Origin: Methanobacteriota archaeon
GTDB lineage: Archaea; Thermoplasmatota; Poseidoniia; Poseidoniales; Poseidoniaceae
Reading direction: 5' to 3'
Assembly (NCBI GenBank): GCA_002707335.2
Contig: PAMN02000027.1
Span: 1 to 32,000, forward strand
Length of the DNA stretch: 32,000 nucleotides
Below are positions 1,820-29,230 of this stretch, in pieces (position 1 is the stretch's first letter; every line of letters begins with the position of its first letter). The position numbers and the translations under genes were made by a program. Below the pieces are notes generated by a model, which was given only the letters and a program-made list of their open reading frames with translations, did no database searches and was not told where the DNA came from.

Positions 1820-1849
1820 GATTGTCCTCCTCACATAGCTCAAAATCTA

Positions 1850-1889
1850 GGGGTGGCTGGTTAAACGCCAACCACTAACCAGCCACCCC
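1850..1889 (+). other. GC-rich perfect hairpin: 14-bp stem GGGGTGGCTGGTTA / TAACCAGCCACCCC with a 12-nt loop
   Basis: Read directly from the sequence. It lies in the 86-nt spacer between the lipoprotein gene and the 777-aa gene. The GC content is conspicuous in an AT-rich genome. Confidence 0.6.
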
Positions 1890-1905
1890 ACTCGGAGCGA
1901 TTACC

Positions 1906-4239: not shown

Positions 4240-4261
4240 GAGCGGTTTTTGAGAAGGTGAA

Positions 4262-7325: not shown

Positions 7326-7345
7326 AAATAAATTAAAGTGATAAT

Positions 7346-8167: not shown

Positions 8168-8199
8168 TGCAATTGTAAGGTTTTGAATACACGGAACGA

Positions 8200-8922: not shown

Positions 8923-8931
8923 GGTGTTACA

Positions 8932-9837
8932 ATGAATAGAGCACTCAAAAAAATCATCTTCACAACGGTTACTCTTTCTGTGCTGTGCTATATCTTTCTT
9001 AATGATTTATTGCAAGGCGATTGGAGTGTTCTCTCTGCAAGTTGGGATAACCTAGAAACATTTTGGAATGAGTCTCTTTGGCCTCCAGAATGGAGTATGT
9101 TAGAAGCCAGGAAATACCCAGAGTGTGGATCAAGCATTGGGTTTTTCTGTTCCAAAGCCTACATTGGAATGCTTGAAACACTAAAAATGGCATTTGTTGC
9201 AACAATAATTGGGTTTACCATAGCAATATTTCTGTCTCCGTTTGCAGCAAAAAACCTCACATCTGCTTGGGTTTACATCCCAATGAGAATAATTCTAGCA
9301 GCAACTAGAAGTCTTCCAAGCATTATATGGGCTATAATCTTCGTAGTAATTGTAGGCCTAGGTCCTTTAGCTGGAGTACTAGCAATGACATTTTACACAG
9401 TAGGGTATCTAGGTAAATTGCAGTATGAAGAAATGGAAGGTGTTCAAAATAGCCCTCTCGAGGCTGCGAGGGCAATGGGGTTATCTCATCCAGAAATCGT
9501 AGCTAACGTTGTCATACCAGAATCAAGCAATAATTTACTTAGTCAACTGCTATTTATGTTTGAATACAATGTTAGACACGGTTCAATCCTTGGTTTAGTT
9601 GGAGCGGGAGGCATAGGATTTTATTTGCAATTCTACTTGAACTTCTTGATGTATAAACACGTTATGGCTTTCATCGTTGTTATTCTGGTGGTTGTAATAA
9701 TCATAGATTTGATGTCGATGTACATACGCTCATTCGTTACAGAAGATGGTGATGTAAAACGACCATCTTGGTCAACAATATTCTTATCTCCAAATCAAGC
9801 AAAGAAATACCATCATGGTAAATCGGAAGAAGAATGA
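8932..9837 (+). CDS. phnE: PhnE-like ABC transporter permease
   Basis: 301-aa multi-TM ORF. EAARAMGLSHPEIVANVVIPES...RHGSILGLVGAGGIGFYL matches the PhnE signature, including GAGGIG. GAGGTG Shine-Dalgarno-like element upstream. Confidence 0.8.
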   Translation: MNRALKKIIFTTVTLSVLCYIFLNDLLQGDWSVLSASWDNLETFWNESLWPPEWSMLEARKYPECGSSIGFFCSKAYIGMLETLKMAFVATIIGFTIAIFLSPFAAKNLTSAWVYIPMRIILAATRSLPSIIWAIIFVVIVGLGPLAGVLAMTFYTVGYLGKLQYEEMEGVQNSPLEAARAMGLSHPEIVANVVIPESSNNLLSQLLFMFEYNVRHGSILGLVGAGGIGFYLQFYLNFLMYKHVMAFIVVILVVVIIIDLMSMYIRSFVTEDGDVKRPSWSTIFLSPNQAKKYHHGKSEEE

Positions 9838-11049: not shown

Positions 11050-12129
11050 TCAATCGTATTTATCATTAAAGTAAGCGGTGATTCCAGGTACGTCCTCAAT
11101 CAGACTACCGTAGTTACCGAGGTGATCTTGCGTGTTAATGATAGTAATTCCAGGAGTACTCATTACATCCTGTAAAATTTCTACGTCATCTGAGTTAGAA
11201 CTCATATCAGAGAATGCATTCTGTATTGTTACAACCATTTCATCTGACATATAATCCGGATTGTACATAATTGGATGGCTTGGAGCCTTTCCAAATGTTG
11301 GCAGTGCGTAATAGTCGTTTACGTCCTTAAATTCACCTTCAAAGCACCAATCTTCATTGTCATCAGGGTCTTCATTGCCACAGTAATCTGGAACTGTAGG
11401 GTCCTTAGCGAAGGAAATGAAGTCTTTTCCACCCTCTGCTAAACAGCGAAGGGAACCTATGTACTTGTGATATTTTGTACCGCTATCTGGTATACTAGAA
11501 TCTTCATTGAAATGATTATACACAGTATCTGTCAAGGAACTGATATCATCTGGATCTCCGACAACTTCGATATAACCTCTGTCAATCATCCATCCCATCG
11601 GAAGTAGCATTCCTGAACTTCCTAATGCAGATGTGTGGCACGATGTTTTACCTTCCATCAAAGCGAATGGATCTGTTGAATTATCATCATCTTGGTCGGC
11701 CAATGCCATGTCTGAATCTTTGTGAACCCATGCGATCGCATTGTAGAATGGTCTTCCATCTTGCTTTTGTTCAGCACCTAAAACCTGTAAGTCGTGTGTT
11801 TGCCAACTGAGCCAAGCAGCACCGCCGTCAAGGAACCCAATATCGGCATGTCCAAATCTCAATGCTTCAATAGTTGCACCAGGACTTGATACGGGGTAAA
11901 TTTCAACGTCCATTCCGATAATTTCTGAAAGCCTATCTGCTAGCTCCTGTGGATTTTCTTCGGTATTCTGGTATTCTTCTTTTGTCTCGAATGCGATTGT
12001 TAAACAGTTGTCTGGGTCATCACATTTCTTGAATGTAACCATACTATCGTCTGTAAATAAACAGCCGGGCATTGCAGCAGATATAAAGAAAATCGTCACT
12101 AAAAACGGGAGGGTCAATTTGGCATTCAT
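11050..12129 (-). CDS. Lipoprotein substrate-binding protein of the PhnD/transferrin superfamily with a transferrin-like Fe-ligand set
   Basis: 359-aa ORF with signal and lipobox (FFISAAMPGC). Motifs ADIGFLDGG, PFYNAIAWVHKDS, GKTSCHTSALGSSGMLLPMG, KYIGSLRCLAEGGKDFISFAK and APSHPIM align by eye to the human serotransferrin N-lobe around Asp63, Tyr95, Thr120, Tyr188 and His249. A pipeline would probably label it a phosphate/phosphite/phosphonate ABC substrate-binding protein. Confidence 0.8.
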   Translation of the reverse strand: MNAKLTLPFLVTIFFISAAMPGCLFTDDSMVTFKKCDDPDNCLTIAFETKEEYQNTEENPQELADRLSEIIGMDVEIYPVSSPGATIEALRFGHADIGFLDGGAAWLSWQTHDLQVLGAEQKQDGRPFYNAIAWVHKDSDMALADQDDDNSTDPFALMEGKTSCHTSALGSSGMLLPMGWMIDRGYIEVVGDPDDISSLTDTVYNHFNEDSSIPDSGTKYHKYIGSLRCLAEGGKDFISFAKDPTVPDYCGNEDPDDNEDWCFEGEFKDVNDYYALPTFGKAPSHPIMYNPDYMSDEMVVTIQNAFSDMSSNSDDVEILQDVMSTPGITIINTQDHLGNYGSLIEDVPGITAYFNDKYD

Positions 12130-15882: not shown

Positions 15883-16689
15883 ATGGAGCCACTACTAAAA
15901 CTCACTAATGTGACGTGGCGACACAAAGTAAGAGATTTTTCAAGTTGGAAACCATGGGCTAAAAAAGACGGCGCTGGCATTTATCATGTTGACCTAGAAA
16001 TTAATCCAGGTACAATACTAGGTTTAGTTGGACCAAATGGTGCTGGAAAGACGACCTTAATCCGTTCAATCTGTGGATTGTATGCTTGTGAAGGTTTTAA
16101 CAAATCTGAAAATTATAGAAGAAAATTTGTTGGATATATGCCAGAACAAGTTCGTTGGGAAGGGCGATTATCAGTCAAGGATGCGATATCATCTATTGCT
16201 GAAATGAGGTCATCATATGTTGATGTAGACAAATTGATCGATACCGTTGGGCTTTCATCTAGATCGGATGACATATTAGACAACCTTTCACAAGGTATGA
16301 GACAAAGAATGTCATTAGCATGTGCATTGATGGGCAGTCCTGAAATTATTGTAATGGATGAACCACTAAATGGCTTAGACCCTCTTGCCCAAAGAGCGTT
16401 TACGAATTTAATGAGACAATTATCTTCCAAGGGAATTTCTATAGTAATATCTTCACATCAGGTTTCAGATTTAGAAGCATTAGCAGACAAAATAGCCCTC
16501 TTACATCATGGTCAAGTCTTGATCGATGGTACCTTGGAACATATTAGGAGTAAATTAAGACTAGATTCTGATTCAGATATTGTAGAAATGATATGTGCAG
16601 TAACTGGCATTCAACCTGATGAGATTTCACTTGACATCGCTAGAGATAGTATAATCCCTCTAAGAAAGCCAGGAGGGGAAGAAGAATGA
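15883..16689 (+). CDS. ABC-2-type transporter ATP-binding protein
   Basis: Walker A GPNGAGKTT, signature LSQGMRQRMSLACAL, Walker B IIVMDEPLNGLD. Confidence 0.9.
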   Translation: MEPLLKLTNVTWRHKVRDFSSWKPWAKKDGAGIYHVDLEINPGTILGLVGPNGAGKTTLIRSICGLYACEGFNKSENYRRKFVGYMPEQVRWEGRLSVKDAISSIAEMRSSYVDVDKLIDTVGLSSRSDDILDNLSQGMRQRMSLACALMGSPEIIVMDEPLNGLDPLAQRAFTNLMRQLSSKGISIVISSHQVSDLEALADKIALLHHGQVLIDGTLEHIRSKLRLDSDSDIVEMICAVTGIQPDEISLDIARDSIIPLRKPGGEEE

Positions 16690-17504
16690 GCGGAGCCAAT
16701 CTTGGATTGCTTATCCTGAAAGAGAGAATCTCAGCAACTAGAATGATGGTGATATGGCCGCTTCTTGCTATTTTTATTCTATTTTCAAGCTGGGGTCTTT
16801 CAGATCCAAAGGCAAATCTTCCCGCTGATATTGTTGTGGATTCAGCGTATGATGTGATGTTTACGTCAACCGCTTTCATTATATTTTCAGCAACATTAGG
16901 TGCAGTATTGATATCTTTTGATGGAATTAGTAGAGACCGAATTTCCGGAGTATTGGAAGTTAAATTATCCCAACCAATGAAAAGGTCAACCTATGCAAGA
17001 GCTCTAGTAATAGGCCACTGGGGCGCTATTTTTGTACCTGTTACTATTCTCAACATCATGAGTTTGATTGTAATCTGGTACAGGATGGGAGAATTACCAA
17101 CTATTGAAGAGGTCTTCATACACACATTAGGAACAGCCTTACTTTTACTATGGTATACCACAATACAACTACTTTCATCTTCCCTTGCCAAAGATATGGG
17201 TTCGTCAATTGCGATTGGAATAGGTGCCTGGATGCTATTCACATTACTCTGGCTCATCATTACAACTGTAGTTGCTGGATTAAGCGGAATTGGTGTAGAA
17301 AACCTTGATTCTCCGGAATATGTGAGAATAGAAGGGATAATGGATTTATTCTCACCAAACGGTGTATACCATCATCTACTAGAAATGCCGCTCGATGAAA
17401 TAGATAGAGGAATTTCACCTATTGCGATAGTCGCTTCCGCAATTGCTTGGAGTCTAATTCCATTACAACTCTTTATTATGAGAATTGAAAGGCTAAAACC
17501 ATAG
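16686..17504 (+). CDS. ABC-2 family permease (NosY-like)
   Basis: 272-aa six-TM-like ORF. Its start overlaps the ATPase stop (ATGA). Typical ABC-2 permease size and topology. Confidence 0.7.
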   Translation: MSGANLGLLILKERISATRMMVIWPLLAIFILFSSWGLSDPKANLPADIVVDSAYDVMFTSTAFIIFSATLGAVLISFDGISRDRISGVLEVKLSQPMKRSTYARALVIGHWGAIFVPVTILNIMSLIVIWYRMGELPTIEEVFIHTLGTALLLLWYTTIQLLSSSLAKDMGSSIAIGIGAWMLFTLLWLIITTVVAGLSGIGVENLDSPEYVRIEGIMDLFSPNGVYHHLLEMPLDEIDRGISPIAIVASAIAWSLIPLQLFIMRIERLKP

Positions 17505-17547
17505 TTTTAGAGTAACAAACAAAGAGGGGAACTAGGTAGGGGTTACT

Positions 17548-19452
17548 ATGAAAGGAAGAATGGTTGTATTATTTTTGGTGGCATTATTCGTTTTTTTGCC
17601 TTTGAATGGCGCAGTTACAGCTGAAGATTCAGGACGTCAAGTAGACGATGTTGATTGTTCAGGATATTCATTTGAAGATTTATTTGAATATGACAATGCA
17701 GTATTCATGTTTGAGATTTTAGACGATTGGGCTACATCTGATCTCTATGCAAACTCATGGGTTAATGAAAGCCGTGCTGCAACTGTAAGAGATAATCTTG
17801 ACAGTCTTTTCGATGGATTCCCAGGTGGTAACAATGACTGGATTTCAACTGACGAGAGAGAGGCTGTTAGAGAAATCGGTGCAAAATGTATTGCAGACAT
17901 GTACACTAGAATTGGTATTCGTGAAGGTACCCCTCATAGAGGAAGTATCAATTGGAACAATGCAACATTCGTGGAGGAAGGAATTGGTCTAGAAGAAGTT
18001 AACTTAGTCCCTGATGGTCATCCTGAAGAGAGATCTTGCTCGCAAAGATATGCATTCGCTAGTGCAGACTGTAGAGAGGTTCCAACAACGGCAACTAATA
18101 ACTTAGAAATCTCGATGTACGTAAAAGATGGTGAGACACACAATACAAGATTCAATCAATTGCCCAACTCTGGCCAGAGCGATTTTACTGTCTCTATGAA
18201 TGTAACAAACATGCCGATGGCGTCAATGGTCTTCACTTTCCCATTCGTTGATGGTTTGAGGCTGGCAAATTTCTCGATACAAGATGATGGAATCGAGAAC
18301 CCATCGGGGGCTACAATCGAAGAGATTTTCCTGCCCGATGGTTCAGTTAGAATCAGTGTAGGTATTTCCTATGAGATAGGTGTTGAAACTGCTATCAGGA
18401 ACATATTCATCGATATGACAACCCAACCTCCAGAATCTAATGATGTTCCTGTGTGGACTAATGAGGCTCCTGCAGATAACACCCTTATCCCAATTCTAAA
18501 TGATGGTAGCGAAACAGTTGCAATAAAGGGCGATATTATGGCAAACTGGGCATCCGATGACGATGCTTGGGGATTAGATTGTGTCTTCACAGAAGAGGGA
18601 TGGTCTAGCAGAATGGTTGGAAGTGATTTACAAGTCACACCAGGAAACAGTCAATCTGGAACTGCAGAATGTTCACCTGTTGACCCATACGGTGCATCAA
18701 GCAACACATCTCACACTTACAAATTTGGACAACCAGCAGATATTAGCGCTACAGCAGGAACCTACAGCGATTCGGTTGATATCAGTATCACGCCAAATAT
18801 GCTGACTCAAAACTTAGCAATGACGCTGGCTCCTAATCAAGGTGCATCCGATGGAGATTCAACTTCATTCAATATTGGTTCTACCCCAAGCACTCAGACA
18901 GTAAGCCTATCTGGAATAGGTCCGGGCTTATTCCACATACATGCGACAGCAGAAGCAGAAGGCATGCTAGATTGGGATGTAATCGTTAACCTAAATTTGG
19001 AAAAGAGAAACACCCCTCCAATTCTGATGGTTTATACTGTTGATGACGATATGTATGCAACATGGTCTGCAGATGGATACTCATTCACTCTGTCTGGCAA
19101 TGCATTCGATCCGGATGGAACTGTTGTAGAATTATCTGCTACAATGTGTGACGAAACCACTACAAGTTTCACATCAGAAGGTAGTGAGTGGGTAGTCAGC
19201 CTTTCAATCGCTAAGTGTGTCTCAATGGGGCTCACAGAAAGTTATGATGTTATTATCTCAGCAAAGGACGATGTTGGTGAATTTACAACAATGGACATTT
19301 TTGTTCCAAACCCAGATGCGGAAGATGAAGCCGAAGGAGAAACAGATACTACTGAGGCAGAGGAAGAAGCCGCAGGACTACCATCAGTCGGATTATTTGC
19401 ATCATTAATCAGCATACTTGCAGCTGCTATTATTCTGAGAAAAGATAACTGA
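17548..19452 (+). CDS. Secreted, anchored protein of unknown function with a C-terminal sorting signal
   Basis: 634-aa ORF with signal peptide MVVLFLVALFVFLPLNGAVTA. An Ig/cadherin-like segment lies near the C-terminus (SGNAFDPDGTVVEL). Acidic/Thr linker EAEGETDTTEAEEEAA, then GLPSVGLFASLISILAAAIILRKDN. Confidence 0.75.
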   Translation: MKGRMVVLFLVALFVFLPLNGAVTAEDSGRQVDDVDCSGYSFEDLFEYDNAVFMFEILDDWATSDLYANSWVNESRAATVRDNLDSLFDGFPGGNNDWISTDEREAVREIGAKCIADMYTRIGIREGTPHRGSINWNNATFVEEGIGLEEVNLVPDGHPEERSCSQRYAFASADCREVPTTATNNLEISMYVKDGETHNTRFNQLPNSGQSDFTVSMNVTNMPMASMVFTFPFVDGLRLANFSIQDDGIENPSGATIEEIFLPDGSVRISVGISYEIGVETAIRNIFIDMTTQPPESNDVPVWTNEAPADNTLIPILNDGSETVAIKGDIMANWASDDDAWGLDCVFTEEGWSSRMVGSDLQVTPGNSQSGTAECSPVDPYGASSNTSHTYKFGQPADISATAGTYSDSVDISITPNMLTQNLAMTLAPNQGASDGDSTSFNIGSTPSTQTVSLSGIGPGLFHIHATAEAEGMLDWDVIVNLNLEKRNTPPILMVYTVDDDMYATWSADGYSFTLSGNAFDPDGTVVELSATMCDETTTSFTSEGSEWVVSLSIAKCVSMGLTESYDVIISAKDDVGEFTTMDIFVPNPDAEDEAEGETDTTEAEEEAAGLPSVGLFASLISILAAAIILRKDN

Positions 19453-19454
19453 GT

Positions 19455-20333
19455 GTGTTTTTGATGTTCTCGGGCACTGTTGACAGGGTTAGCCATGAAG
19501 GTGGCTTGTTGGTTTCTTATACCGGCTCATGCCCTGCATTAGGTTCTGTAATGGTTGATTCAAATGATGAATATATCGGAAAGGTAGACGGTGTAATTGG
19601 TAACACAGATAGTTCCTTAGTCCACATTGCACACTTGGACAGGAAATCAAGAGCTGAAAAATTAGTTGGTATTACCGTTCTAATTAGAACCAAAAAACCC
19701 AACCAAAACAGAACATTCGATAGAAGAAACGATCGGGGAAACGATAGAAGAAGCGATCGTAGAAACGATAGAAGGCAATCCAATCAAATCTCAAATAGCA
19801 GAGATTGGGAATGTAAAAGTTGTGGAAATTCTAACTTTTCATTTAGAACGGAATGCAATCGATGCGGCGAACCAAAGAACAGTAGATCTGGGTCAGATAA
19901 TAGGCGCAGAGATGACAGACGAGGCGGTAACAGGCGAGGAGATAACCAACAAAGAAGGGATAATTATCGCAATGACAACCGACGTGGTGACAACAGGCGT
20001 GGCGACAATCGACAGAGAAGAGATAACTTCCGTGGAGACAGACGTAACGACAATCGACGTGATGATAATAGGCAAAGAAGAGATGACTATCGTGGTGACA
20101 ATAGGCGCGGCGATAGGAGTAGGGACAACAGGGAAAGAAATTCTCCGCCAAAGCGTGCTGGAGACTGGGATTGCCCAAGTTGTGGAAAATCCAATTTTGC
20201 AAATCGAACAGAATGTTTCAGTTGTGGAAAATCAAAAAGAGTAGGTGGTCCCAGACAAAGAGGCCATCACAGAAAACAAAAGAGTCCACCAGGTTTGCAT
20301 TCTGCAAGATACGGAAGGGGTTCGAGGGATTGA
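19455..20333 (+). CDS. Gar1-like (H/ACA RNP) beta-barrel core fused to two RanBP2-type zinc fingers and Arg/Asp/Asn-rich repeats
   Basis: The N-terminus, GTVDRVSHEGGLLVSYTGSCPALGSVMVDSNDEYIGKVDGVIGN, follows the archaeal Gar1 pattern (G-x-V..G-h-L-V....P-x-L-x-x-x-V-x-D....h-G-x-V-x-x-V-h-G). Two perfect W-x-C-x2-C-x3-N-x6-C-x2-C fingers: WECKSCGNSNFSFRTECNRC and WDCPSCGKSNFANRTECFSC. Probable start is the ATG at 19464 (MFSGTV). Confidence 0.65.
   Translation: MFLMFSGTVDRVSHEGGLLVSYTGSCPALGSVMVDSNDEYIGKVDGVIGNTDSSLVHIAHLDRKSRAEKLVGITVLIRTKKPNQNRTFDRRNDRGNDRRSDRRNDRRQSNQISNSRDWECKSCGNSNFSFRTECNRCGEPKNSRSGSDNRRRDDRRGGNRRGDNQQRRDNYRNDNRRGDNRRGDNRQRRDNFRGDRRNDNRRDDNRQRRDDYRGDNRRGDRSRDNRERNSPPKRAGDWDCPSCGKSNFANRTECFSCGKSKRVGGPRQRGHHRKQKSPPGLHSARYGRGSRD
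19890..20138 (+). repeat. In-frame degenerate tandem repeats encoding (D/N)NRRGDN(R/Q)QRRD(N/D)(Y/F)R-type units
   Basis: Three units of about 20 aa each: DDRRGGNRRGDNQQRRDNYRN, DNRRGDNRRGDNRQRRDNFRG and DRRNDNRRDDNRQRRDDYRG. They are visible in both the translation and the DNA. A shorter RND-rich stretch lies at 19710-19778. Confidence 0.8.
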
Positions 20334-20334
20334 A

Positions 20335-21366
20335 ATGAGTGCTGAAGGCCATTATCTGGACGCTATTGAAGCTGAAGAAAACGGTCAATTAGAAGATGCT
20401 CTTGAACATGCTAGAAAAACAGTGGAAGTTGATCCTTCTCACTCCAATGCATGGTGGATGATTGCTCAATTATTAGCTCCAGATGGTAAATATCCTGATA
20501 TCAATCAAGCGTCCAAGGCACTGGTTGCTTGTAACAAAGTAGTAGATTTAGATCCATCAAGAGTAGATGCTTGGGTAAAAGGTGGAAGATTGATGGTAGA
20601 TCATCTAGGACTCAATGAAGATGCTCTGCATTGGTGGCAAAAATGCAGAGAGGTTGCACCTTTTGAATCCGTTCCAATAGTAGAGCAAACCACTATTCTT
20701 TCCGATTTTGGATTGTATGAAGATGCACGAGACAGGCTAGGAGCTTTATTCAAAGAAGATTTAGATATTGCAAATTCTCAACTTGCAAAAATTTCACATC
20801 TTCACAGAACTTTGGAAATGTCTGCATCACAAGACCCTGATTCCCATTTTAAACCATGGAAAAAGAACCACCCTGGTTGGTCTTCTATTAAAATCCGTTC
20901 CAATAAGGCACCAATATCTGAAAATATGATTTTCATGATGACTACAATTCCAATATTGATGATGGAAGTTTTCGCTTCTCGGTCAATTTTTGGTGAGGGG
21001 TGGGCGGCTTTTTGCATGACAAGTATACTTATTCTTGTAACTGTAATCGTTGGTATGGCATTCACTCGAAAGATATACCACAGAGTCAATAAACCCGGAT
21101 TTAATTTACTAAGGGCTATTCAATTTGAGGCAAGTAGTGGAAAAGTAGTGATACCAAATGAAATAAGAGGCTCTAAACTCTACATGTTCCTATTTTCAAG
21201 GCATCCACCTGCTTTCCAACAAAGACTTGAAAAAATAATTGAGAGTAATAAAAAATTACCTAATAATTGGAAATTCAATTTCCCTGACTTCGAGTCACAT
21301 CTTGATGAGATTGGTGAAATCGAAGAAGATGTTGAAAACGAACCTGAATCATTCGAAGAAGAATGA
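20335..21366 (+). CDS. TPR-repeat membrane protein of unknown function
   Basis: I place the start at MSAEGHYL (20335), 1 nt after the upstream TGA, not at the ORF-track start 20245. TPR-like helices (LEDALEHARKTVEVDPSHSNAWWMIAQLL, ALVACNKVVDLDPSRVDAWVKGG). Two TMs (IFMMTTIPILMMEVF, AAFCMTSILILVTVIVGMAF). Acidic C-terminus. Confidence 0.65.
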   Translation: MSAEGHYLDAIEAEENGQLEDALEHARKTVEVDPSHSNAWWMIAQLLAPDGKYPDINQASKALVACNKVVDLDPSRVDAWVKGGRLMVDHLGLNEDALHWWQKCREVAPFESVPIVEQTTILSDFGLYEDARDRLGALFKEDLDIANSQLAKISHLHRTLEMSASQDPDSHFKPWKKNHPGWSSIKIRSNKAPISENMIFMMTTIPILMMEVFASRSIFGEGWAAFCMTSILILVTVIVGMAFTRKIYHRVNKPGFNLLRAIQFEASSGKVVIPNEIRGSKLYMFLFSRHPPAFQQRLEKIIESNKKLPNNWKFNFPDFESHLDEIGEIEEDVENEPESFEEE

Positions 21367-22717: not shown

Positions 22718-25700
22718 CTATTGCTGCCCTTGGAAGTGAGCGGCATATTGTTGGGCATAGGCCCGTGCCGTTTCTTCAGGGTAACCTTGAGCAATCAACT
22801 GCTGTACGTATTGTTCCATTGGATCCATTTGTGCAACTGCTCCGTAAGCATCAGCTCCTCCAGCCCAGCCAGTATCGCCTTGCATCATTTCATCTTCATC
22901 TCCACCTTTGAGAACAAAGAATAGTGTTAGTACAACAATCAATAGAAGCGCTCCACCGCCACCGAGATACAGAATCAAGTTATCGTCTCCGCCTGATTCT
23001 GCAGAATTATCAACTGGTGCTTTGTCTGGAATTCCATCACCATCAGAGTCTGTATATTCTCCTGACCATTCACATTCTTTTGTATCTGCATTCCAAATCC
23101 AATAAGCGTCTTGTTCTGCAACTAGTACTTCGTTACTCGGCAAATCTCCTTGACAAGCATCAAGTCTAATTTCTATCCAATAAACAATCGGCCATCTCTT
23201 GTCTTCTCCTTCGTATATCTTCAAGTAAATTTCCTTGTCATAAGTAGTATTGTTATACAAATCTGTAAGTGTTAGAGTTAGTTCGAATGAATCTCCATTT
23301 CCTAGAGGTAGACTCTTACGCCATTCACCAGACTTATTCAGGGTAAACTTCGATACAGCGGATGCATCAAATGAATCTCTATCTAGTGCTGCTTCGACAT
23401 AAACATCGCCTTGCTCAGCACCATCAAGGATATTACCTGATAATGTGATTGTGTCGTTAGAGTAGGTTGAACCATTCAAGTTCACGTCGATTTGAACGGT
23501 AGGCTCTTCGTCTCCAAATCCTTCAGGCACTACAGAGAAATACATTTTGTATCTCTCTGATAATTTATCTGCTTTGTCAATTACAACCAATTCAATTCGT
23601 ATTAGAGACTCGGTTTGACCACTAGGGTCGACTGTCACGTTACTGAATGTATAAGCCCATTTGCCATCGCTTGAACTAGGCATAATGAAACTGTGTGCTG
23701 GTGGAATAGATGTATCATCGTATTCTTTGTCAAAGAGTACTGTCCACTCATATGTTTCTATTCCATTTCCAGTAACTGCATCAGGATCGTTAGATTCACT
23801 AGCGTCAAAGTAAACCGTAAGTGAGCCTGTTTCATCCAAGTGAATTCGGTTTTGAGGCCAATCTACACCAGATGCTGTCTTTACTCCTTGACTTTCAATT
23901 CTCTCTGCATAGGAATCTCTCATCTCTATTTCCACGCTAGCAGTTGGAGGATCTGCGTCTGCCTTTGTATCGTCTGTCATTACTGTAGCAGATAGTACTC
24001 TGGAATGCCCCTCGTTGTCGTGTAGATACAATTTTACATTCCATGTAGCACCTTGCTGACAGTTAGTTGCGGATGAAAGATCTACCTTACAGAATGTAGT
24101 TGTTGGACTCATCAAATCTGTGTGAGATGTGCCACTAGCCATTGATGCTCCATTCCAATCAGTAGGTCCATCTAGAACCCAATCAGTTTCTAACGCAGAA
24201 GTAGATGTACTTGTGTATCCAAATGTTATCTCCGCGTTGCTCTTCATGTAGGTGTATGCATATCCACCAGTTGAAGGGTCAATAGAAGGTGTGTCCCCAT
24301 TAATGGTCAATTGTGTTCCATTTTGTGTAAATCCGTCAGGATATGGGGATACGTGATAGCCCAACATGTTACCTAATAGTGGGAATGTGGTGCTGTTGGC
24401 TCTTTCAGAAACACTTGCTACATCTATAGTTGTAACAATCATTCCGCCATCCAGGTAACTACAGACTCCAAGAACTGTGTCTTGTTGATCTACTTCTGAT
24501 TGAAGGATTCGTTGGAAGGAACCTCCTGATTCAGAGTAGCCACCACATGCACGAGGAACAGATGTTGCAGAAGCGCTCTTTGTGTTAATTATAGCTTCAG
24601 TTACAGTTCCAAATTGGTCAAACCCTTGGAATGCTGCCACATCGACTCCGTCCAAAATTGGATGGTATGGGTCAGCAACTTCCATGTTACTGTATGTTAT
24701 TCTATTGTTGGCATCTGCCTTAGGCTTGATGTCCATATCAAACGGCAACAAACTTTCACCGGTTGAAGAGGAATACTCGTAGTAATCAGTATCTCCTGAA
24801 AGGTGAACTTGAACAGTTCCACCAGAAGACATGAAATTCTTGAGTACCAATTGGTTAGAAGACTTGCCAATTACTTCATAGTAACCACGTCCACCTTCGT
24901 CTACTGGTTTAGCAGTGTTTGGATCTTGCCAAGGCATGATGACCTTATCGTAGTGAGAGATCCATCCAAGATCTAGGTATTCGTCCCAATCGTTGATGTC
25001 ATATTGAGTGTATGTCATTCCTAGGATTTGGATATCTTCCTTAATTGCAGAAACTCTTGTAGAATCTCCCGACAGTATTGCTACATCGATTTGGTCTGCA
25101 AATGCTGCGTGGAAGTATCGAACATTTCCAGATGTCTTTCCATCAGGTAATGTTGCATGGAAACTGATGTTGTACATGTGACCATCAGTCCATCCGTTCC
25201 ATGGGGTGAAAGACAGTCCTGTCTTTTCATTTGGAGCCAGAGTTTTACTTGGACCAGCGGTGGTAGTATGGACTTCAGTCCCGTCTGCCATGTCTACAAC
25301 TGTCATGTGGAATACATAATCACCTTGTAGAACTCCATTTGTTGCTGACAGTTCCCAGTCATGAGTTAGGGAAGAGTCAATTGGCAACATACAATCCATC
25401 ACTACATCTGATAAACAAGATATTTGATCAGGTTTTCCTAGAGTGATATCTACACTTTCCACCGAGAAGATTACTTGAGCAAGATTGTTTGCAACTGAGA
25501 CTTCTTCTGCTCCAAACCAGCTTGTTCCTGCTGTTGTGTTATCGAAAATTGATTCGATTTCAATCTTGTAAACTCCAGAATAGAATTCATGGTTTGCTAC
25601 TGGAATTGTTCTGTTTTCTTCAGCATCTAGGTCTTGAACTGTAGTAGTGTAAACCGCATCTTGGCTGAATGTGAACTCCTGTAAGGAAATATTGTCGAAT

Positions 25701-28700
25701 GCAACTCCTCGTACACCATCATTCTGTCCGTTGTGCCCATCGTCATTCGAACGGAATTCGAAGTTGATATCTACAACTGAACCTGCTAGGCTTAGACATT
25801 CATCAGTCCAGAAAGCAGAGTCTGGAGCGGTAGTATTGACAATGTACAAGTGAGTTAGATCAATACTTCTACTCTGTACGAGTCCATCTGAATTGAAGAA
25901 TACATTGTAGTTTCCTGAACCACCGTTTACGTTAGTAGGGTCGCCAATATATTCTATTTCAGTTGTATCGAGCGTAGTCTCGTTGACTGGGTCAATGAAA
26001 CCATTTTCATCCTCATCAACTATACAGAAACCATCTTCGTTGTAGTCAATCCATTGTCCGTAAATGACACCTTCATAATCGGTTCCATTATTGTTCCAAT
26101 CGGCTGTTATAGCAGCGTAATCATTAACAGAAGAGGTTGCACCTGACTGAGAAATTTCGAACCATGTCTCTGCGAAATACTCGAAGTTTAGAGCAACATA
26201 GTCGCCAGACATGCTTGTTAAGTCAATATCTGGAATTGTGAGTGTTTCGTTCTCCCAAACATCTCCAAAGCTGTTTGCTGTATCACAAGGATGTCCGAAC
26301 CAGTATGCGTAAGATCCGAATAAGGACTCTGCACAACTTGAATCATCTAAGATTCCACCGTTAGCGTTTCCGTCATCGACATATCGGAATCCAGAGGACC
26401 CACCTTCAAATGCTTCCCCACAAATCACTAGTGGCGTTCCACAGAAAACATCTGCTGGAATTGCGCTGTAAACTGTTGCTTCTATGTCAAATGTGACATT
26501 CGTGTTTCCAAGATGTTCAACTTTGACTTCGACAGGGAAATTACCCTCAGCGTAAAGGCTACCTGATTTGAATGATTCAATACCTACAACTGCAGGGTCA
26601 AAGATGTTGAATGCAGCGATATATCCAACAATATCGTCATTTGCAGGTTGCTCGTCTTGTCCATAATTCAAAACTGCGGAAATTCTGTATGTAGTACCAT
26701 TTTCGAAGTTAGCGGTGATTGAAGTTGTATAATCCTCGTTTGGTGCTAAGTTGTTCATGTTGATGTTAGATTGTTGGTTTTGTACATTTGATGTGAAACC
26801 AGTGGTCTGTTTCCAAATAGTTACGTTATCTATAGCGAAACCATCTCTTCCAGTCCATAACGTTTCATTAGCACCAACTGAGCCATCCCATCCAGATTTG
26901 AATCTGAAACGGATATCTACAATGTCTCCGGTAAAACTTGACAATTCAAATGCGCCAAGGTCTTCCTCAGTAAAGTTTGACCAACCGTAATATGTTCCAG
27001 GAATTGCACCACCATATCTGTAGATTGCTTCAGAGAATCCTGTATTTGCTTGTGATTCTCTACGGCCGTTGTCGTAACCTCCCCAATAACTGGTTTGTGA
27101 AGGACATTGTCCGTCGAAATATGCTTCGTTAGGACAGGATAGAGTAGTCCAACCATCATCTTCAGTGAAGATTTCGATGATTGCTGCATCATCCCAAATT
27201 TCTGCTAGAACTATACCATTTGCATCGCTTGTGTAAAGATCGGATATGCCGAGATGCCTGAACATTTCAATGCTCATCCATGCTCTGTCTGCGCCTGTCA
27301 AATCGACATCGTTCAGAACCAATCCTTCATCCCAATTTGGTTCATATCCAGACCATGTGTCTCCACTAGAGTTAGTTTTCATTACTCCAGACCACATAAA
27401 GTCTGTTGGGTTGTTACCATTCGCTGAGAAATTTGCATCGTTGTTTCCACCGTTAGTCTGACCCATACTGCTGTTTGCAGCTATCTCTTCATGCCAGTGA
27501 GATGGACCGTAGTAAGATTCTGTAGTCCAAGTACATCCTGAACCACATCCTGACCTGTCCTCTGGATTATCCCAATCCATAGCGTAAACAGTGGTATTGC
27601 TGGATAATGATTCATCAACTTCCTTGATTTCAACATCTAGAGTCGCTTGACCATTTAGAATGTCCATACCTGTGTTTGTTACTGTAACCTTGACTTCCCT
27701 TGATCCTTCTCCTAATGCGCCAATGTATGCATCTGTTGGAGATATTTCAATACTTGAAACAGCCAAATCCTTATTGTCCATTTCAATGACTACAATTCGG
27801 TCATATGCTCCATCCCAGCCAAAGTTATCGTCCCATGTGAATGAATCGTAAGAACCGTGACCGACAATCAAATCAGGAGCACTGTTAGCGCCACCGATTA
27901 CTTGCCCTACTGCAACAGTTGTTGGTCTCATAGCGCCAAAGTACTCCAGTGGATTCATGTGGCCACCATTTCCGTTAGAAAGAGTAACTTGAACACTTGT
28001 TGGAAGATTCAAGAAGTAATTGCTTGTTGTATCTCCTGTTGACGAGGTAGAGTTGGACTGCTTGAATTTAGCAGCGTGTACGAAATCAACCTCTCCATCA
28101 CCGTTTAATTCAGTTACAGTTACTTCCCAAGAGATGTATGGTCCAAAGTATACAGTTTTTGTATTTGCATAAGTGTGAGTTGTTGGATTCAATGTCGCAT
28201 ATGATACGTTTTCTGTATTTGCGTCATTCATTGCAACAACATCGATGAGACCGTCATTATCGAGATCTCCAATGTCAAACCCACCAAATTCGGGTCCTAG
28301 GGCATGAACGTGAACGCCATTTCCTCCCTGTTGTGTCCATTGAAGAACTGCTGGGAATGTGTTAGTTAAACAGTCGAATTCCACTACAGTAACGTTGTCT
28401 GACTTTCCAGGGTTTGTTGCTGCACCGGTAAGGTAGTCAACACCTTGGGAGCGAACTAGCCACATGTCTACATCGTCACATGAACCGCCGCTTAGCGGAT
28501 TTGCTTGGCTGGGTTCTCCCCAATCTCCTAGTTCTAGTTCTGTGTAAGAATTCTGTGTAGAGTCACCGAGTGAAGTGACTTGCCCTTGAGTTGATGAAGT
28601 GATAGGACCTCTGTAAGTGACAACTCTTTGTTGTTTTAGGTCTGCAAGCAATTCAAGAGTGACGATGTCATCATTTCCATCTCCATCCAAATCTGCAACT

Positions 28701-29230
28701 GCTAGATCCCACATCCAAACTACATCGTACTGCTCACCGATGGAGAAAGTGTCGACGTCACAGCCGTCGTTTTCTAGAATTGTTACGTTACCCAATTTGT
28801 TGACAACAACAGCGCCAGTTGAGTCTTGGCGCAGTGGAATGTTTCTAGCGTAGATAACGATGTCAATTGCGTTATCTCCGGTAAATTCACCGACTTCTAC
28901 TTGTTGAGTGTTAGAGTGATCTTCGTAATTTGCATCTGAACTTGGATTACCTGAAGTCCAAACATCTGATCTCTTTTGGAACTGTCCATTTTCGTTCCAC
29001 AGAATCGATATTTTTGTACTCCTGTCGTTAGCGGTGACGATGTCTAAGTCGCCATCACAATCGAAGTCACCAAGGGCGACATCGACAGGGTCTGTTTCAG
29101 TTGTGTATGACCTCGATGTTGAAGCCGATACTAGGTTAGCAGCAGTTGTTGAAAGCAACATTACCAGGACGAGAAGTAGTGCGTTTCCGCGTCCATCTTT
29201 GTTCAAAGTCTTCCATTGCATTGTTATCAC
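22718..29230 (-). CDS. Giant (2170 aa) type I membrane surface protein: FG-GAP/VCBS propeller, CARDB-, MAM/jelly-roll- and PKD-like domains, C-terminal TM and cytoplasmic tail
   Basis: Signal peptide ALLLVLVMLLSTTAANLVSAS. FG-GAP Ca-loop motifs: GDFDCDGDLDIVTAN, VADLDGDGNDDIVTL, IGDLDNDGLIDVVAMN, ELNGDGEVDFVHA. CARDB-like VKVTVTNTGMD. MAM-like ends GFAIDNVTIW and GVAFDNISLQ. PKD-like LTVYFDASESNDPD..YEWTV. TM ILYLGGGGALLLIVVLTLFFVL (about 22910-22975) followed by a 63-aa tail. Probable ATG start at 29221 (MQWKTL). Confidence 0.9.
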   Translation of the reverse strand: MITMQWKTLNKDGRGNALLLVLVMLLSTTAANLVSASTSRSYTTETDPVDVALGDFDCDGDLDIVTANDRSTKISILWNENGQFQKRSDVWTSGNPSSDANYEDHSNTQQVEVGEFTGDNAIDIVIYARNIPLRQDSTGAVVVNKLGNVTILENDGCDVDTFSIGEQYDVVWMWDLAVADLDGDGNDDIVTLELLADLKQQRVVTYRGPITSSTQGQVTSLGDSTQNSYTELELGDWGEPSQANPLSGGSCDDVDMWLVRSQGVDYLTGAATNPGKSDNVTVVEFDCLTNTFPAVLQWTQQGGNGVHVHALGPEFGGFDIGDLDNDGLIDVVAMNDANTENVSYATLNPTTHTYANTKTVYFGPYISWEVTVTELNGDGEVDFVHAAKFKQSNSTSSTGDTTSNYFLNLPTSVQVTLSNGNGGHMNPLEYFGAMRPTTVAVGQVIGGANSAPDLIVGHGSYDSFTWDDNFGWDGAYDRIVVIEMDNKDLAVSSIEISPTDAYIGALGEGSREVKVTVTNTGMDILNGQATLDVEIKEVDESLSSNTTVYAMDWDNPEDRSGCGSGCTWTTESYYGPSHWHEEIAANSSMGQTNGGNNDANFSANGNNPTDFMWSGVMKTNSSGDTWSGYEPNWDEGLVLNDVDLTGADRAWMSIEMFRHLGISDLYTSDANGIVLAEIWDDAAIIEIFTEDDGWTTLSCPNEAYFDGQCPSQTSYWGGYDNGRRESQANTGFSEAIYRYGGAIPGTYYGWSNFTEEDLGAFELSSFTGDIVDIRFRFKSGWDGSVGANETLWTGRDGFAIDNVTIWKQTTGFTSNVQNQQSNINMNNLAPNEDYTTSITANFENGTTYRISAVLNYGQDEQPANDDIVGYIAAFNIFDPAVVGIESFKSGSLYAEGNFPVEVKVEHLGNTNVTFDIEATVYSAIPADVFCGTPLVICGEAFEGGSSGFRYVDDGNANGGILDDSSCAESLFGSYAYWFGHPCDTANSFGDVWENETLTIPDIDLTSMSGDYVALNFEYFAETWFEISQSGATSSVNDYAAITADWNNNGTDYEGVIYGQWIDYNEDGFCIVDEDENGFIDPVNETTLDTTEIEYIGDPTNVNGGSGNYNVFFNSDGLVQSRSIDLTHLYIVNTTAPDSAFWTDECLSLAGSVVDINFEFRSNDDGHNGQNDGVRGVAFDNISLQEFTFSQDAVYTTTVQDLDAEENRTIPVANHEFYSGVYKIEIESIFDNTTAGTSWFGAEEVSVANNLAQVIFSVESVDITLGKPDQISCLSDVVMDCMLPIDSSLTHDWELSATNGVLQGDYVFHMTVVDMADGTEVHTTTAGPSKTLAPNEKTGLSFTPWNGWTDGHMYNISFHATLPDGKTSGNVRYFHAAFADQIDVAILSGDSTRVSAIKEDIQILGMTYTQYDINDWDEYLDLGWISHYDKVIMPWQDPNTAKPVDEGGRGYYEVIGKSSNQLVLKNFMSSGGTVQVHLSGDTDYYEYSSSTGESLLPFDMDIKPKADANNRITYSNMEVADPYHPILDGVDVAAFQGFDQFGTVTEAIINTKSASATSVPRACGGYSESGGSFQRILQSEVDQQDTVLGVCSYLDGGMIVTTIDVASVSERANSTTFPLLGNMLGYHVSPYPDGFTQNGTQLTINGDTPSIDPSTGGYAYTYMKSNAEITFGYTSTSTSALETDWVLDGPTDWNGASMASGTSHTDLMSPTTTFCKVDLSSATNCQQGATWNVKLYLHDNEGHSRVLSATVMTDDTKADADPPTASVEIEMRDSYAERIESQGVKTASGVDWPQNRIHLDETGSLTVYFDASESNDPDAVTGNGIETYEWTVLFDKEYDDTSIPPAHSFIMPSSSDGKWAYTFSNVTVDPSGQTESLIRIELVVIDKADKLSERYKMYFSVVPEGFGDEEPTVQIDVNLNGSTYSNDTITLSGNILDGAEQGDVYVEAALDRDSFDASAVSKFTLNKSGEWRKSLPLGNGDSFELTLTLTDLYNNTTYDKEIYLKIYEGEDKRWPIVYWIEIRLDACQGDLPSNEVLVAEQDAYWIWNADTKECEWSGEYTDSDGDGIPDKAPVDNSAESGGDDNLILYLGGGGALLLIVVLTLFFVLKGGDEDEMMQGDTGWAGGADAYGAVAQMDPMEQYVQQLIAQGYPEETARAYAQQYAAHFQGQQ

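What the first reader, a model, noticed from the sequence alone, without database searches (positions are those of the whole stretch)
19455..20333. Gar1-like core fused to two RNA-type RanBP2 zinc fingers and RDN-rich repeats: a eukaryote-like architecture
The first 80 aa or so follow the archaeal Gar1 beta-barrel pattern. Downstream lie two fingers matching W-x-C-x2-C-x3-N-x6-C-x2-C exactly (nt 19806-19865 and 20166-20225). Both carry the N-F-x-x-R-T-x-C signature that I associate with the ssRNA-binding ZRANB2 subclass (cf. NFARRTSCNRCG). The fingers frame about 83 aa of degenerate repeats rich in Arg, Asp and Asn (DNRRGDNRQRRDNFR-like). Archaeal Gar1 proteins are normally short with at most a Lys-rich tail. 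Eukaryotic Gar1 is flanked by Gly/Arg-rich domains, and the repeat-ZnF(RanBP2)-repeat arrangement is the FUS/EWS/TAF15 layout. RanBP2 fingers are predominantly eukaryotic. The low-complexity Arg/Asp region could mediate RNA binding or condensate-like behaviour around the H/ACA pseudouridylation machinery.
Basis: partly seen in the sequence, partly recalled or inferred. Interest (0 to 1): 0.75.

Follow-up and report, generated by a model that had tools for sequence, protein, structure and literature searches.

The report
Archaeal Gar1 with RNA-type zinc fingers
The pseudouridylation-complex protein Gar1 of the abundant marine group II archaea carries a previously undescribed tail of disordered arginine-rich linkers and FUS/ZRANB2-like zinc fingers, which probably adds RNA binding much as the arginine/glycine-rich tails of eukaryotic Gar1 do.

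Summary
The gene (most likely 19464..20333, 289 aa) encodes three folded modules separated by predicted-disordered Arg/Asp/Asn-rich linkers.

The N-terminal 80 aa are a Gar1 barrel. This is sub-threshold for Pfam (19 bits against a cut-off of 29.3). Fold search settles it: the top 13 PDB hits are all Gar1 (TM 0.76/0.85, rmsd 1.4-1.9 A). A family profile also supports it (Pyrococcus Gar1 E = 1.2e-5).

Both fingers pass Pfam's RanBP2 threshold. Their closest solved relatives are the RNA-bound FUS and ZRANB2 fingers, and the published RNA-contact positions are almost invariant across the family.

This is not a one-off. 203 species-representative genomes carry it, all of the 80 listed being marine group II (Poseidoniales) except one apparently mis-binned MAG, and always in the same gene neighbourhood. 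Finger number ranges from 0 to 5. Divergent orthologues at the same locus have plain basic tails or RGG tails instead.

Databases call these proteins "hypothetical", "zinc finger protein" or occasionally "Gar1". I found no paper on the fusion.

The best reading is the lineage's Gar1 orthologue with an added single-stranded-RNA-binding tail. Not tested: whether a second, canonical gar1 exists in these genomes, and any binding to RNA or Cbf5.

The parts
19464..20333 (+). Coding sequence of the Gar1-zinc-finger protein (289 aa plus stop). The mechanical ORF starts at a GTG at 19455.
   Evidence: ORF listed. P0001 is 99% identical and has 289 aa. Relatives start MF.G. The upstream stop is at 19450-19452 and the downstream ATG at 20335.
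19464..19703 (+). Gar1 beta-barrel core (aa 1-80).
   Evidence: AF2 pLDDT 87 for the domain alone and about 90 in the full-length model. Foldseek against PDB: 2ey4_D E = 1.1e-4, 2hvy_B TM 0.76/0.86 with rmsd 1.4 A, then yeast, human and insect Gar1. The A2 profile matches 2hvy_B at E = 1.2e-5 and yeast 3u28_C at 0.014. Pfam PF04410 gives only 19.2-19.4 bits against a cut-off of 29.3.
19704..19796 (+). Linker 1 (aa 81-111): Arg/Asp/Asn-rich (DRRN-type repeats), predicted disordered.
   Evidence: pLDDT below 50 for residues 81-111. TRF finds a 12/24-nt repeat at 19718-19774. Composition R10 D5 N6.
19797..19886 (+). RanBP2-type zinc finger 1 (aa 112-141; strict motif at nt 19806-19865). It carries the full ZRANB2/FET-type RNA-contact signature: D4, N14, F17, F19, R20, N24.
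   Evidence: PF00641 32.5 bits against a cut-off of 27. phmmer to ZRANB2 F2 2k1p gives E = 1.5e-5. pLDDT 79-90. Contact positions from PMC6384913 and family frequencies.
19887..20138 (+). Linker 2 (aa 142-225): 84-aa polyampholyte of RRGDN-type pentapeptide repeats, with net charge +13, 7 RG, 1 RGG and three regularly spaced aromatics. Predicted disordered.
   Evidence: pLDDT below 50 for residues 142-225. 15-nt repeats at 19895-19946 and 19973-20013. Composition.
20139..20243 (+). RanBP2-type zinc finger 2 (aa 226-260; strict motif at nt 20166-20225). D4, F17 and R20 are kept, but positions 14, 19 and 24 are K, N and F.
   Evidence: PF00641 44.3 bits. Matches ZNF265 1n0z at E = 4.9e-5 and RBM10 2mxv at 1.4e-4. 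pLDDT 84-89. The last finger shows K14 and F24 in 31% of the family.
20235..20318 (+). Conserved C-terminal motif KRVGGPxxxGHHRKxKxPPxLHSA[KR]YGR within an otherwise disordered basic tail.
   Evidence: The same motif occurs in loci L001-L036. The other clade has a related '...RKARGKxxGHAHNRxP...DD'. Its function is unknown.
17548..19452 (+). Upstream co-directional gene: a 634-aa protein with no Pfam match. Its stop lies 11 nt before the Gar1 ATG. It is part of the conserved neighbourhood.
   Evidence: Present upstream in 74 of 80 loci, and also in the divergent loci L081-L084.
20335..21366 (+). Downstream co-directional gene: a TPR-containing protein. Its ATG lies 1 nt after the Gar1 stop. 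It is part of the conserved neighbourhood.
   Evidence: TPR hits. Present downstream in 58 of 80 loci, and in L081 and L084. Sequence.

Best explanation
This is the Gar1 subunit of the H/ACA pseudouridylation ribonucleoprotein as it exists in marine group II archaea (Poseidoniales).

The N-terminal barrel would dock on the pseudouridine synthase Cbf5, as in Pyrococcus and eukaryotes. The lineage has added a long, flexible, net-positive Arg/Asp/Asn(/Gly)-rich tail to the C-terminus. That tail carries one to five (here two) C4 zinc fingers of the ZRANB2/FUS single-stranded-RNA-binding type and ends in a short conserved GHH...PP motif.

The tail most likely supplies extra, multivalent, low-affinity contacts with single-stranded RNA. 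Each finger would read a G-rich triplet and the Arg-rich linkers would bind the backbone. This would help the RNP capture, hold or release its rRNA/tRNA substrates or its guide RNA. The role would be analogous to that of the GAR (RGG) domains flanking eukaryotic Gar1.

Shown here: the fold, the domain identities, conservation of the RNA-contact residues, predicted disorder, and order-wide orthology and synteny. Inferred: Cbf5 binding, RNA binding and its specificity, and any effect on pseudouridylation.
For: Gar1 identity:
- The AF2 model is confident (pLDDT 87).
- The top 13 PDB fold matches are all Gar1 from solved H/ACA RNPs (archaeal TM 0.76/0.85, rmsd 1.4-1.9 A, 24-26% identity).
- The broad family profile matches Pyrococcus Gar1 at E = 1.2e-5 and yeast Gar1 at 0.014. 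It shares the P-x-L/F...[IV]GKVDx[IV]xG motif.
- 25 of 32 members hit PF04410 at E < 0.01, with no rival family.
- JGI's pipeline names some members 'rRNA processing protein Gar1'.

Orthology:
- One locus per genome in 203 species representatives, with invariant neighbours.
- Divergent forms at the same locus are a barrel plus a plain basic tail, like canonical archaeal Gar1 (P0184, P0188), or a barrel plus an RGG tail (P0198).

Fingers:
- Both are above the Pfam cut-off.
- The best solved relatives are the RNA-bound FUS and ZRANB2 fingers.
- Contact positions D4, aromatic-17 and R20 are 99-100% conserved. N14 and N24 are 99-100% conserved in first and middle fingers. Position 19 is aromatic, as in FUS/EWS, where this does not change specificity (PMC6384913).

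Tail:
- Linkers have pLDDT below 50 and net charge +13.
- Finger-plus-linker units duplicate in tandem (adjacent internal fingers are 80% identical on average, and 29% of pairs are at least 90% identical).
Against: - The query and every relative tested score below the curated Gar1 thresholds: Pfam 16-22 bits against 29.3, NCBIfam about 20 bits against more than 100.
- I could not scan a whole Poseidoniales genome, so a second, canonical gar1 is not excluded. Nor was the presence of Cbf5, Nop10 or H/ACA guide RNAs in these genomes checked.
- Finger 2 has lost three of the six RNA-contact residues.
- Nothing in the neighbourhood relates to RNA modification. The neighbours are an ABC transporter, an unannotated 634-aa protein, a TPR protein and AdoHcyase, and no RNA family is detected in the window.
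- No binding data exist.
Confidence: 0.75

Rival explanations
1. A Gar1-like paralogue. The barrel has been recruited into a free-standing RNA-binding protein or chaperone that works outside the H/ACA RNP, while a separate canonical Gar1 serves Cbf5. Eukaryotic Naf1 is a precedent for re-using the Gar1 fold.
For: Sequence scores are sub-threshold for every curated Gar1 model. The family is sharply isolated, with only 119 of 1.84 billion representatives matching the barrel profile. The whole-genome check for a second gar1 was not possible.
Against: Fold matches to true Gar1 (TM 0.70-0.77) are clearly better than to Naf1 (TM 0.59-0.64). The Gar1 hallmark motif is kept. Finger-less orthologues at the same locus look like ordinary archaeal Gar1 with a basic tail. 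No second Gar1-like family surfaced in any search.
Confidence: 0.13
2. The fingers are protein-binding modules, as in Nup153/RanBP2 (Ran) or Npl4/TAB2 (ubiquitin). They might dock a ubiquitin-like modifier or another RNP protein rather than RNA.
For: RanBP2 fingers are functionally split between protein and RNA binders (PMC8034646 abstract; PMC6384913). Finger 2 has lost N14, R19 and N24. A conserved C-terminal motif hints at a protein partner.
Against: The consensus finger scores 10^3 to 10^6 times better in E-value against the RNA-bound fingers (FUS 3.7e-7, ZRANB2 5.8e-7) than against Nup153 (5.7e-4), RanBP2 (0.25) or TAB2 (0.64). D4, aromatic-17 and R20 are 99-100% conserved. The context is an RNP protein with an Arg-rich tail.
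Confidence: 0.08
3. An artefact: a chimeric assembly, eukaryotic contamination, or a spurious ORF created by repetitive DNA.
For: The repeats generate long ORFs in other frames (19822..20244 +, 19843..20202 -). Many public contigs break inside this gene.
Against: The same reading frame, barrel, fingers and C-terminal motif recur in 203 species-representative genomes with identical flanking genes. These include a 2.06-Mb chromosome (L057) and a 1.53-Mb contig (L001).
Confidence: 0.01

Closest known systems
Archaeal Gar1 (Pyrococcus furiosus; PDB 2EY4, 2HVY, 3MQK)
   Same: Same small beta-barrel (TM 0.76/0.85, rmsd 1.4-1.9 A, 24-26% identity). Same P-x-L...G-x-V-x-x-V-x-G motif. A basic tail follows the barrel.
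   Different: The Pyrococcus protein is 104 aa with a short Lys-rich tail. This one adds about 210 aa of disordered Arg/Asp/Asn-rich linkers, two zinc fingers and a conserved C-terminal motif. Its sequence is too divergent to pass the curated Gar1 thresholds.
Eukaryotic Gar1/GAR1 (yeast 3U28, human telomerase and snoRNP structures)
   Same: Gar1 core flanked by arginine-rich, low-complexity, presumably RNA-binding regions. Shares the GKVDE/GKVDx motif. Some relatives (P0198 and many Poseidoniaceae) have true RGG-rich tails, with up to 19 RGG.
   Different: Eukaryotic GAR domains flank both sides, are Gly/Arg-rich and contain no zinc finger. Here the extension is C-terminal only, is Arg/Asp/Asn-rich in this protein (one RGG), and is punctuated by fingers.
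ZRANB2 (ZNF265) zinc fingers
   Same: Same finger motif and the same RNA-contact residues. The protein has two fingers in tandem. phmmer E = 1.5e-5 for finger 1 and 5.8e-7 for the family consensus.
   Different: ZRANB2 is a eukaryotic splicing factor with an SR-like tail. Position 19 is Arg in ZRANB2 but Phe here. There is no Gar1 domain in ZRANB2.
FUS/EWS/TAF15 (FET) C-terminal RGG-ZnF-RGG module
   Same: This is the best solved match for the consensus finger (FUS 6g99, E = 3.7e-7). Position 19 is aromatic as in FUS/EWS. The finger is embedded between arginine-rich disordered regions.
   Different: There is no SYGQ prion-like domain and no RRM. The finger has C-x2-C rather than C-x4-C. The linkers are Asp/Asn-rich rather than Gly-rich. 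It is not a family member, only a similar layout.
Naf1 (Gar1-fold assembly factor)
   Same: Same barrel fold class.
   Different: A weaker structural match (TM about 0.6, rmsd 3.1-3.4 A). Naf1 is eukaryotic and lacks fingers.
Sulfolobus ArnA N-terminal zinc finger
   Same: A published archaeal protein said to carry a RanBP2-type finger (PMC6509490).
   Different: It has a single finger fused to an FHA domain in a motility regulator. There is no RNA-type signature or Gar1 link reported.

Membership tests
Gar1 (PF04410 / COG3277, H/ACA RNP subunit) | Gar1-type small beta-barrel fold | tested here: met
   AF2 pLDDT 87. The Foldseek top 13 PDB hits are all Gar1, TM 0.70-0.77, rmsd 1.4-2.3 A.
Gar1 (PF04410 / COG3277, H/ACA RNP subunit) | Score above the curated family thresholds | tested here: not met
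   Pfam 19.2-19.4 bits against 29.3. NCBIfam Gar1 equivalogs at most 21 bits against cut-offs of 103-139. Divergent orthologues score 16-22 bits.
Gar1 (PF04410 / COG3277, H/ACA RNP subunit) | Significant profile-level sequence homology to experimentally solved Gar1, including the hallmark motif | tested here: met
   A2 profile: 2hvy_B E = 1.2e-5, 3u28_C E = 0.014, top five hits all Gar1. 25 of 32 members hit PF04410 at E < 0.01 with no rival family.
Gar1 (PF04410 / COG3277, H/ACA RNP subunit) | Binds the catalytic domain and thumb loop of Cbf5 within an H/ACA RNP | not testable with these tools
   No complex prediction or binding assay is available here.
Gar1 (PF04410 / COG3277, H/ACA RNP subunit) | It is the genome's only Gar1 (orthologue, not paralogue) | tested here: inconclusive
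   Single conserved locus in 203 species representatives. Finger-less orthologues resemble canonical Gar1.
RanBP2-type zinc finger (PF00641) | W-x-C-x2-4-C-x3-N-x6-C-x2-C motif and a score above the Pfam threshold | tested here: met
   Both fingers match exactly. Scores are 32.5 and 44.3 bits against 27.
RanBP2-type zinc finger (PF00641) | Compact fold of two beta-hairpins around one zinc ion | tested here: inconclusive
   AF2 gives pLDDT 79-90 with short strand pairs at both fingers. Zinc binding cannot be tested here.
ssRNA-binding RanBP2 subclass (ZRANB2 / FET / RBM5-10 type) | RNA-contact residues D4, N14, aromatic-17, R19 (or an aromatic, as in FUS/EWS), R20, N24 | tested here: met
   Finger 1 has D, N, F, F, R, N. 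Family frequencies are 93-100% in first and middle fingers. Positions are taken from PMC6384913. Finger 2 keeps only D4, F17 and R20.
ssRNA-binding RanBP2 subclass (ZRANB2 / FET / RBM5-10 type) | Binds GGU/GGN single-stranded RNA | not testable with these tools
   Needs SELEX, EMSA or BLI.
GAR / RGG domain (as in eukaryotic Gar1, fibrillarin) | Gly/Arg-rich region with many RGG/RG repeats | tested here: not met
   The query's two linkers and C-terminal tail hold 10 RG but only 1 RGG, and linker 2 is 11% Gly with 21% Asp and 17% Asn. Some relatives do meet it (up to 19 RGG; P0198).
FET proteins (FUS/EWS/TAF15) | N-terminal SYGQ-rich domain plus an RRM alongside RGG-ZnF-RGG | tested here: not met
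   No RRM or other domain is detected. The N-terminus is a Gar1 barrel.

The most novel reading that the evidence does not exclude
The finger-and-linker tail makes the H/ACA RNPs of marine group II archaea multivalent RNA-binding scaffolds that cluster ribosome-biogenesis machinery into a condensate, a nucleolus-like body in an archaeon. Alternatively or additionally, these fingers record an exchange in either direction between planktonic archaea and eukaryotes of the FET/ZRANB2-type RNA-binding finger, which would mean this 'eukaryotic' RNA-recognition module has a prokaryotic history.
Probability: 0.12. Interest if true: 0.8.

Novelty: new variant of a known kind. Interest (0 to 1): 0.55.

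Why it matters
Gar1 is a universal archaeal and eukaryotic RNP subunit. Its arginine-rich RNA-binding tails have been regarded as a eukaryotic elaboration.

Here an entire order of archaea, among the most abundant in the surface ocean, has independently given Gar1 a long disordered arginine-rich tail. That tail is studded with zinc fingers whose closest solved relatives are those of human FUS and ZRANB2.

This matters in four ways:
- It gives a natural prokaryotic test case for what such tails do for H/ACA RNPs.
- It extends the RNA-type RanBP2 finger firmly into archaea.
- It offers a tractable system with variable finger number (0-5) for studying multivalency and disorder in an archaeal RNP.
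- It explains why annotation pipelines miss Gar1 in these genomes: the barrel scores below curated thresholds, so the protein is named only by its fingers.

Tried and rejected
- Single-sequence Pfam, NCBIfam and PDB searches for Gar1 were too weak to decide. A broader family profile and a fold search were needed.
- I considered spending a large protein search on canonical Gar1.
- A scan of the 1.16 Mb of Poseidoniales DNA in hand found no other finger-bearing gene. All of those loci cover the same region, so this says little about the rest of the genome.
- A viral-contig scan for the finger found nothing.
- Rfam and tRNA scans of the window found nothing, so there is no adjacent H/ACA guide RNA.
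- The apparently short 93-aa 'canonical' form (P0181) is probably a frameshifted copy of a 151-aa protein. An adjacent 59-aa ORF and a 151-aa cluster mate point to this.
- MAGs with two copies were considered as evidence for paralogues. I rejected this because both copies have identical flanks, which indicates strain mixtures.
- I considered reading the C-terminal motif as a PY-NLS-like signal, but dropped it because there is no P-Y and archaea have no karyopherins.
- Literature searches for Gar1 or RanBP2 together with marine group II, Poseidoniales or archaea returned no description of the fusion.
Full report
OBSERVATION.
The ORF 19455..20333 (+) is real. The upstream gene stops at 19450-19452. 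An ATG at 19464 opens the conserved MFSG... start, and a 99%-identical database protein (P0001) has 289 aa. The stop is at 20331-20333, and the next gene's ATG follows at 20335. I therefore take 19464..20333 as the coding sequence.

The region between them is an 84-aa stretch of 32 Arg, 18 Asp, 14 Asn and 9 Gly with net charge +13. It is built on 15-nt (pentapeptide RRGDN-like) repeats. A 12/24-nt repeat array encodes the shorter linker before finger 1.

DOMAIN IDENTITIES: FINGERS.
Pfam's RanBP2 finger model scores 60.2 bits for the protein, and 32.5 and 44.3 bits for each finger alone, against a cut-off of 27.

DOMAIN IDENTITIES: GAR1 BARREL.
- The Gar1 claim is weak on single-sequence evidence. 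PF04410 gives 19.2 bits against 29.3, and the NCBIfam Gar1 equivalogs give about 20 bits against cut-offs above 100.
- I built a profile of the N-terminal domain from 21 relatives (A1). Even this matched Pyrococcus Gar1 only at E = 0.075.
- The fold test was decisive. AlphaFold2 on A1 gave a confident all-beta barrel (pLDDT 87). Foldseek against the PDB returned Gar1 for the top 13 hits. Archaeal Cbf5-Nop10-Gar1 complexes came first (2ey4_D E = 1.1e-4; 2hvy_B TM 0.76/0.86, rmsd 1.4 A, 24% identity). Yeast, human telomerase and insect Gar1 followed. Naf1 and unrelated barrels scored clearly lower.
- A broader profile that included divergent relatives (A2) made the sequence evidence significant too. 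Pyrococcus Gar1 scored E = 1.2e-5 and yeast Gar1 0.014, and the top five hits were all Gar1. The residue-level alignment shares the P-x-L/F...[IV]GKVDx[IV]xG motif.
- 25 of 32 family members hit PF04410 at E < 0.01 with no competing family. None of the members tested on its own reaches the curated threshold.

FOLDED AND DISORDERED REGIONS.
A full-length AlphaFold2 model shows three confident modules. The barrel (1-80) has pLDDT about 90, finger 1 (112-141) has 79-90 and finger 2 (226-260) has 84-89. The linkers (81-111 and 142-225) and the tail (261-289) are below 50, consistent with intrinsic disorder.

WHAT KIND OF FINGER.
- The published RNA-contact positions of ZRANB2 finger 2, in the numbering of PMC6384913, include D4, the stacking aromatic at 17, R19 and R20. 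N14 and N24 are my own mapping of the remaining side-chain contacts onto that numbering.
- That paper also notes that Trp at position 19 in FUS and EWS does not alter specificity.
- I tabulated every finger in the family (149 first fingers, 63 middle, 133 last). D4 is 100%. N14 is 99-100% in first and middle fingers and 66% in last fingers. Aromatic-17 is 100%. Position 19 is Phe or Trp in 90-100% of first and middle fingers. R20 is 99-100%. N24 is 99-100% in first and middle fingers and 66% in last fingers.
- The family consensus is [NG]DW[DE]CPKCNNSNF[AS]FRTECNRCG[EA]P[KR].
- Its best solved matches are FUS (6g99, E = 3.7e-7), ZRANB2 finger 2 (2k1p/3g9y, 5.8e-7), ZNF265 finger 1, TAF15 and RBM10. 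The protein-binding fingers score far worse: Nup153 5.7e-4, RanBP2 0.25 and TAB2 0.64.
- In this protein, finger 1 has the full signature (D, N, F, F, R, N). Finger 2 keeps D4, F17 and R20 but has K14, N19 and F24. About a third of last fingers share this pattern.

DISTRIBUTION AND ORTHOLOGY.
- The protein has 308 relatives at E <= 1e-3 in the large protein collection. Of the 120 listed, 119 carry the same barrel followed by one to five fingers; the exception, P0114, is a 192-aa protein from a 1.2-kb contig with the barrel but no finger.
- Where they are named, NCBI calls them 'hypothetical protein' or 'zinc finger protein' of Candidatus Poseidoniales or Poseidoniaceae. JGI calls a few 'rRNA processing protein Gar1'.
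- A scan of one genome per species found the barrel in 203 species representatives. All 80 listed are Poseidoniales MAGs or single-cell genomes, apart from one contig binned as Salinimicrobium. They include the 2.06-Mb MG-II chromosome CM001443.1 (L057), and L001 at 82% identity on a 1.53-Mb contig.
- Genes that my parser recovered with a stop codon carry mostly 2 to 4 fingers; over all 78 parsed loci, truncated ones included, the counts were 38 with two, 19 with three, 8 with four, 5 with one and 8 with none. Many contigs end inside the gene, as expected for repetitive DNA.
- The neighbourhood is essentially invariant: ABC ATPase, ABC permease, a roughly 630-aa protein with no Pfam match, this gene, a TPR protein, then AdoHcyase and a giant FG-GAP protein on the other strand.
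- Three MAGs with two copies have the same flanks around both, so they are strain mixtures and not paralogues.

DIVERGENT ORTHOLOGUES.
- An exhaustive HMM search of 1.84 billion representatives with the barrel profile found only 119 proteins.
- The weaker tier consists of divergent relatives from marine Thermoplasmatota and Thalassarchaeaceae MAGs.
- They sit at the same locus. The upstream protein is 26-31% identical. The downstream TPR protein is 31-33% identical. AdoHcyase and the giant protein are also there.
- Their tails vary. Some are plain basic tails without fingers (P0184, P0188). One is a true RGG tail without fingers (P0198). One has a single degenerate finger (P0212). Others have variant fingers with a C-x4-C second knuckle (P0196, P0199, P0201), or two to three canonical fingers.
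- Fingers are therefore gained, lost and duplicated within one orthologous gene lineage. Adjacent internal fingers are 80% identical on average, and 29% of pairs are at least 90% identical.

MECHANISM.
The best-supported reading is that this is the lineage's Gar1. Its barrel docks on Cbf5 as in the solved complexes. Its tail adds multivalent single-stranded-RNA binding through the fingers and the Arg-rich disordered linkers. This role would be analogous to the GAR domains of eukaryotic Gar1.

Fold, domain identity, residue conservation, disorder prediction and orthology are shown. Cbf5 binding, RNA binding and any effect on pseudouridylation are inferred.

The main open point is whether these genomes also hold a canonical Gar1. 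I could not scan a whole genome, and the structure libraries that list organisms were unavailable. Three observations argue for orthology. The finger-less orthologues look like ordinary archaeal Gar1. The locus is single-copy across the order. The structural match to Gar1 is better than to Naf1.

COMPARISON AND NOVELTY.
- The barrel is a Gar1 by fold and profile, but not by curated thresholds.
- The fingers are bona fide PF00641 members of the RNA-binding subclass.
- In this protein the linker is not a GAR domain in the strict sense (one RGG), although many relatives have RGG-rich tails (median 3 RGG, maximum 19).
- The protein is not a FET family member, because it has no RRM and no SYGQ domain. 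It only shares the disordered-Arg/finger/disordered-Arg layout.
- One archaeal protein, Sulfolobus ArnA, has been described as carrying a RanBP2-type finger (PMC6509490).
- No paper in the searchable library links Gar1 or RanBP2 fingers with marine group II archaea.
- I rate this a new variant of a known kind. It is widespread in databases under uninformative names and apparently undescribed.

CONTEXT.
The window holds no RNA family or tRNA. The neighbouring genes are transporters, surface proteins and metabolic enzymes. The conserved gene order therefore gives no functional clue.

Noticed in passing
window 20235-20318 (aa 258-285): A conserved short motif sits at the extreme C-terminus: KRVGGPxxxGHHRKxKxPPxLHSA[KR]YGR. 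It recurs almost unchanged in loci L001-L036. The other Poseidoniaceae clade has a related '...RKARGKxxGHAHNRxP...DD'. The rest of the tail evolves freely. It is a candidate docking motif with an unknown partner.
   Followed up: partly
L007, L029, L040, L042-L044, L048, L049, L052, L055, L058-L061, L063, L068, L071, L075, L076, L078; L062, L064, L065: About a quarter of public contigs end inside this gene, and some copies contain runs of N. The repetitive linker DNA breaks assemblies, so many database entries are truncated or labelled partial.
   Followed up: partly
window 15883-21366 and loci L001-L084: A tightly packed co-directional cluster (ABC ATPase, ABC-2 permease, a 634-aa protein with no Pfam match, Gar1-ZnF, TPR protein) is conserved across the whole order and in divergent relatives, with stop and start codons nearly touching. 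Why Gar1 travels with these genes is unexplained.
   Followed up: partly
P0196, P0199, P0200, P0201, P0211 (divergent orthologues): A variant finger, GDW.CPKC.NHN[YF]A.K..CNRS.C, has four residues rather than two between the last two cysteines. My strict motif does not count it. In P0211 it co-occurs with canonical fingers.
   Followed up: no
L081 8001-8458: The 93-aa 'short Gar1' P0181 is followed by an overlapping 59-aa ORF, and its cluster mate P0233 has 151 aa. This is probably a frameshift in a polished long-read assembly rather than a genuinely short form.
   Followed up: partly
L038 (CAXRAI010000013.1): A contig binned as Salinimicrobium sp. (a bacterium) carries the archaeal gene with full Poseidoniales synteny. 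It is almost certainly a binning error.
   Followed up: no
L010/L018 (MED870), L017/L020 (SP3054), L023/L034 (SP143): Three MAGs hold two copies of the locus with identical flanking genes but, in two of the three MAGs, different finger numbers (2 vs 3 in MED870; 3 vs 3 in SP143; 2 vs 2 in SP3054). These look like strain mixtures, and the MED870 pair suggests that finger number varies between close strains.
   Followed up: partly
window 22718-29230 (-): A 2170-aa protein with FG-GAP-like repeats and a C-terminal transmembrane segment is conserved next to the locus in 48 of 80 genomes at 49-88% identity.
   Followed up: no
window 536-9837: A probable iron or haem uptake cluster: Fea1-like low-iron-inducible protein, periplasmic binding protein, FecCD permease, ABC ATPase and a CREG/DUF2470 (haem-utilisation-like) protein. 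Further along lies a phosphonate/transferrin-type binding protein (11050-12129, -).
   Followed up: no
window 19822-20244 (+) and 19843-20202 (-): Long alternative-frame ORFs (140 and 119 aa) overlap the linker. They are by-products of the repeat composition and not genes.
   Followed up: no
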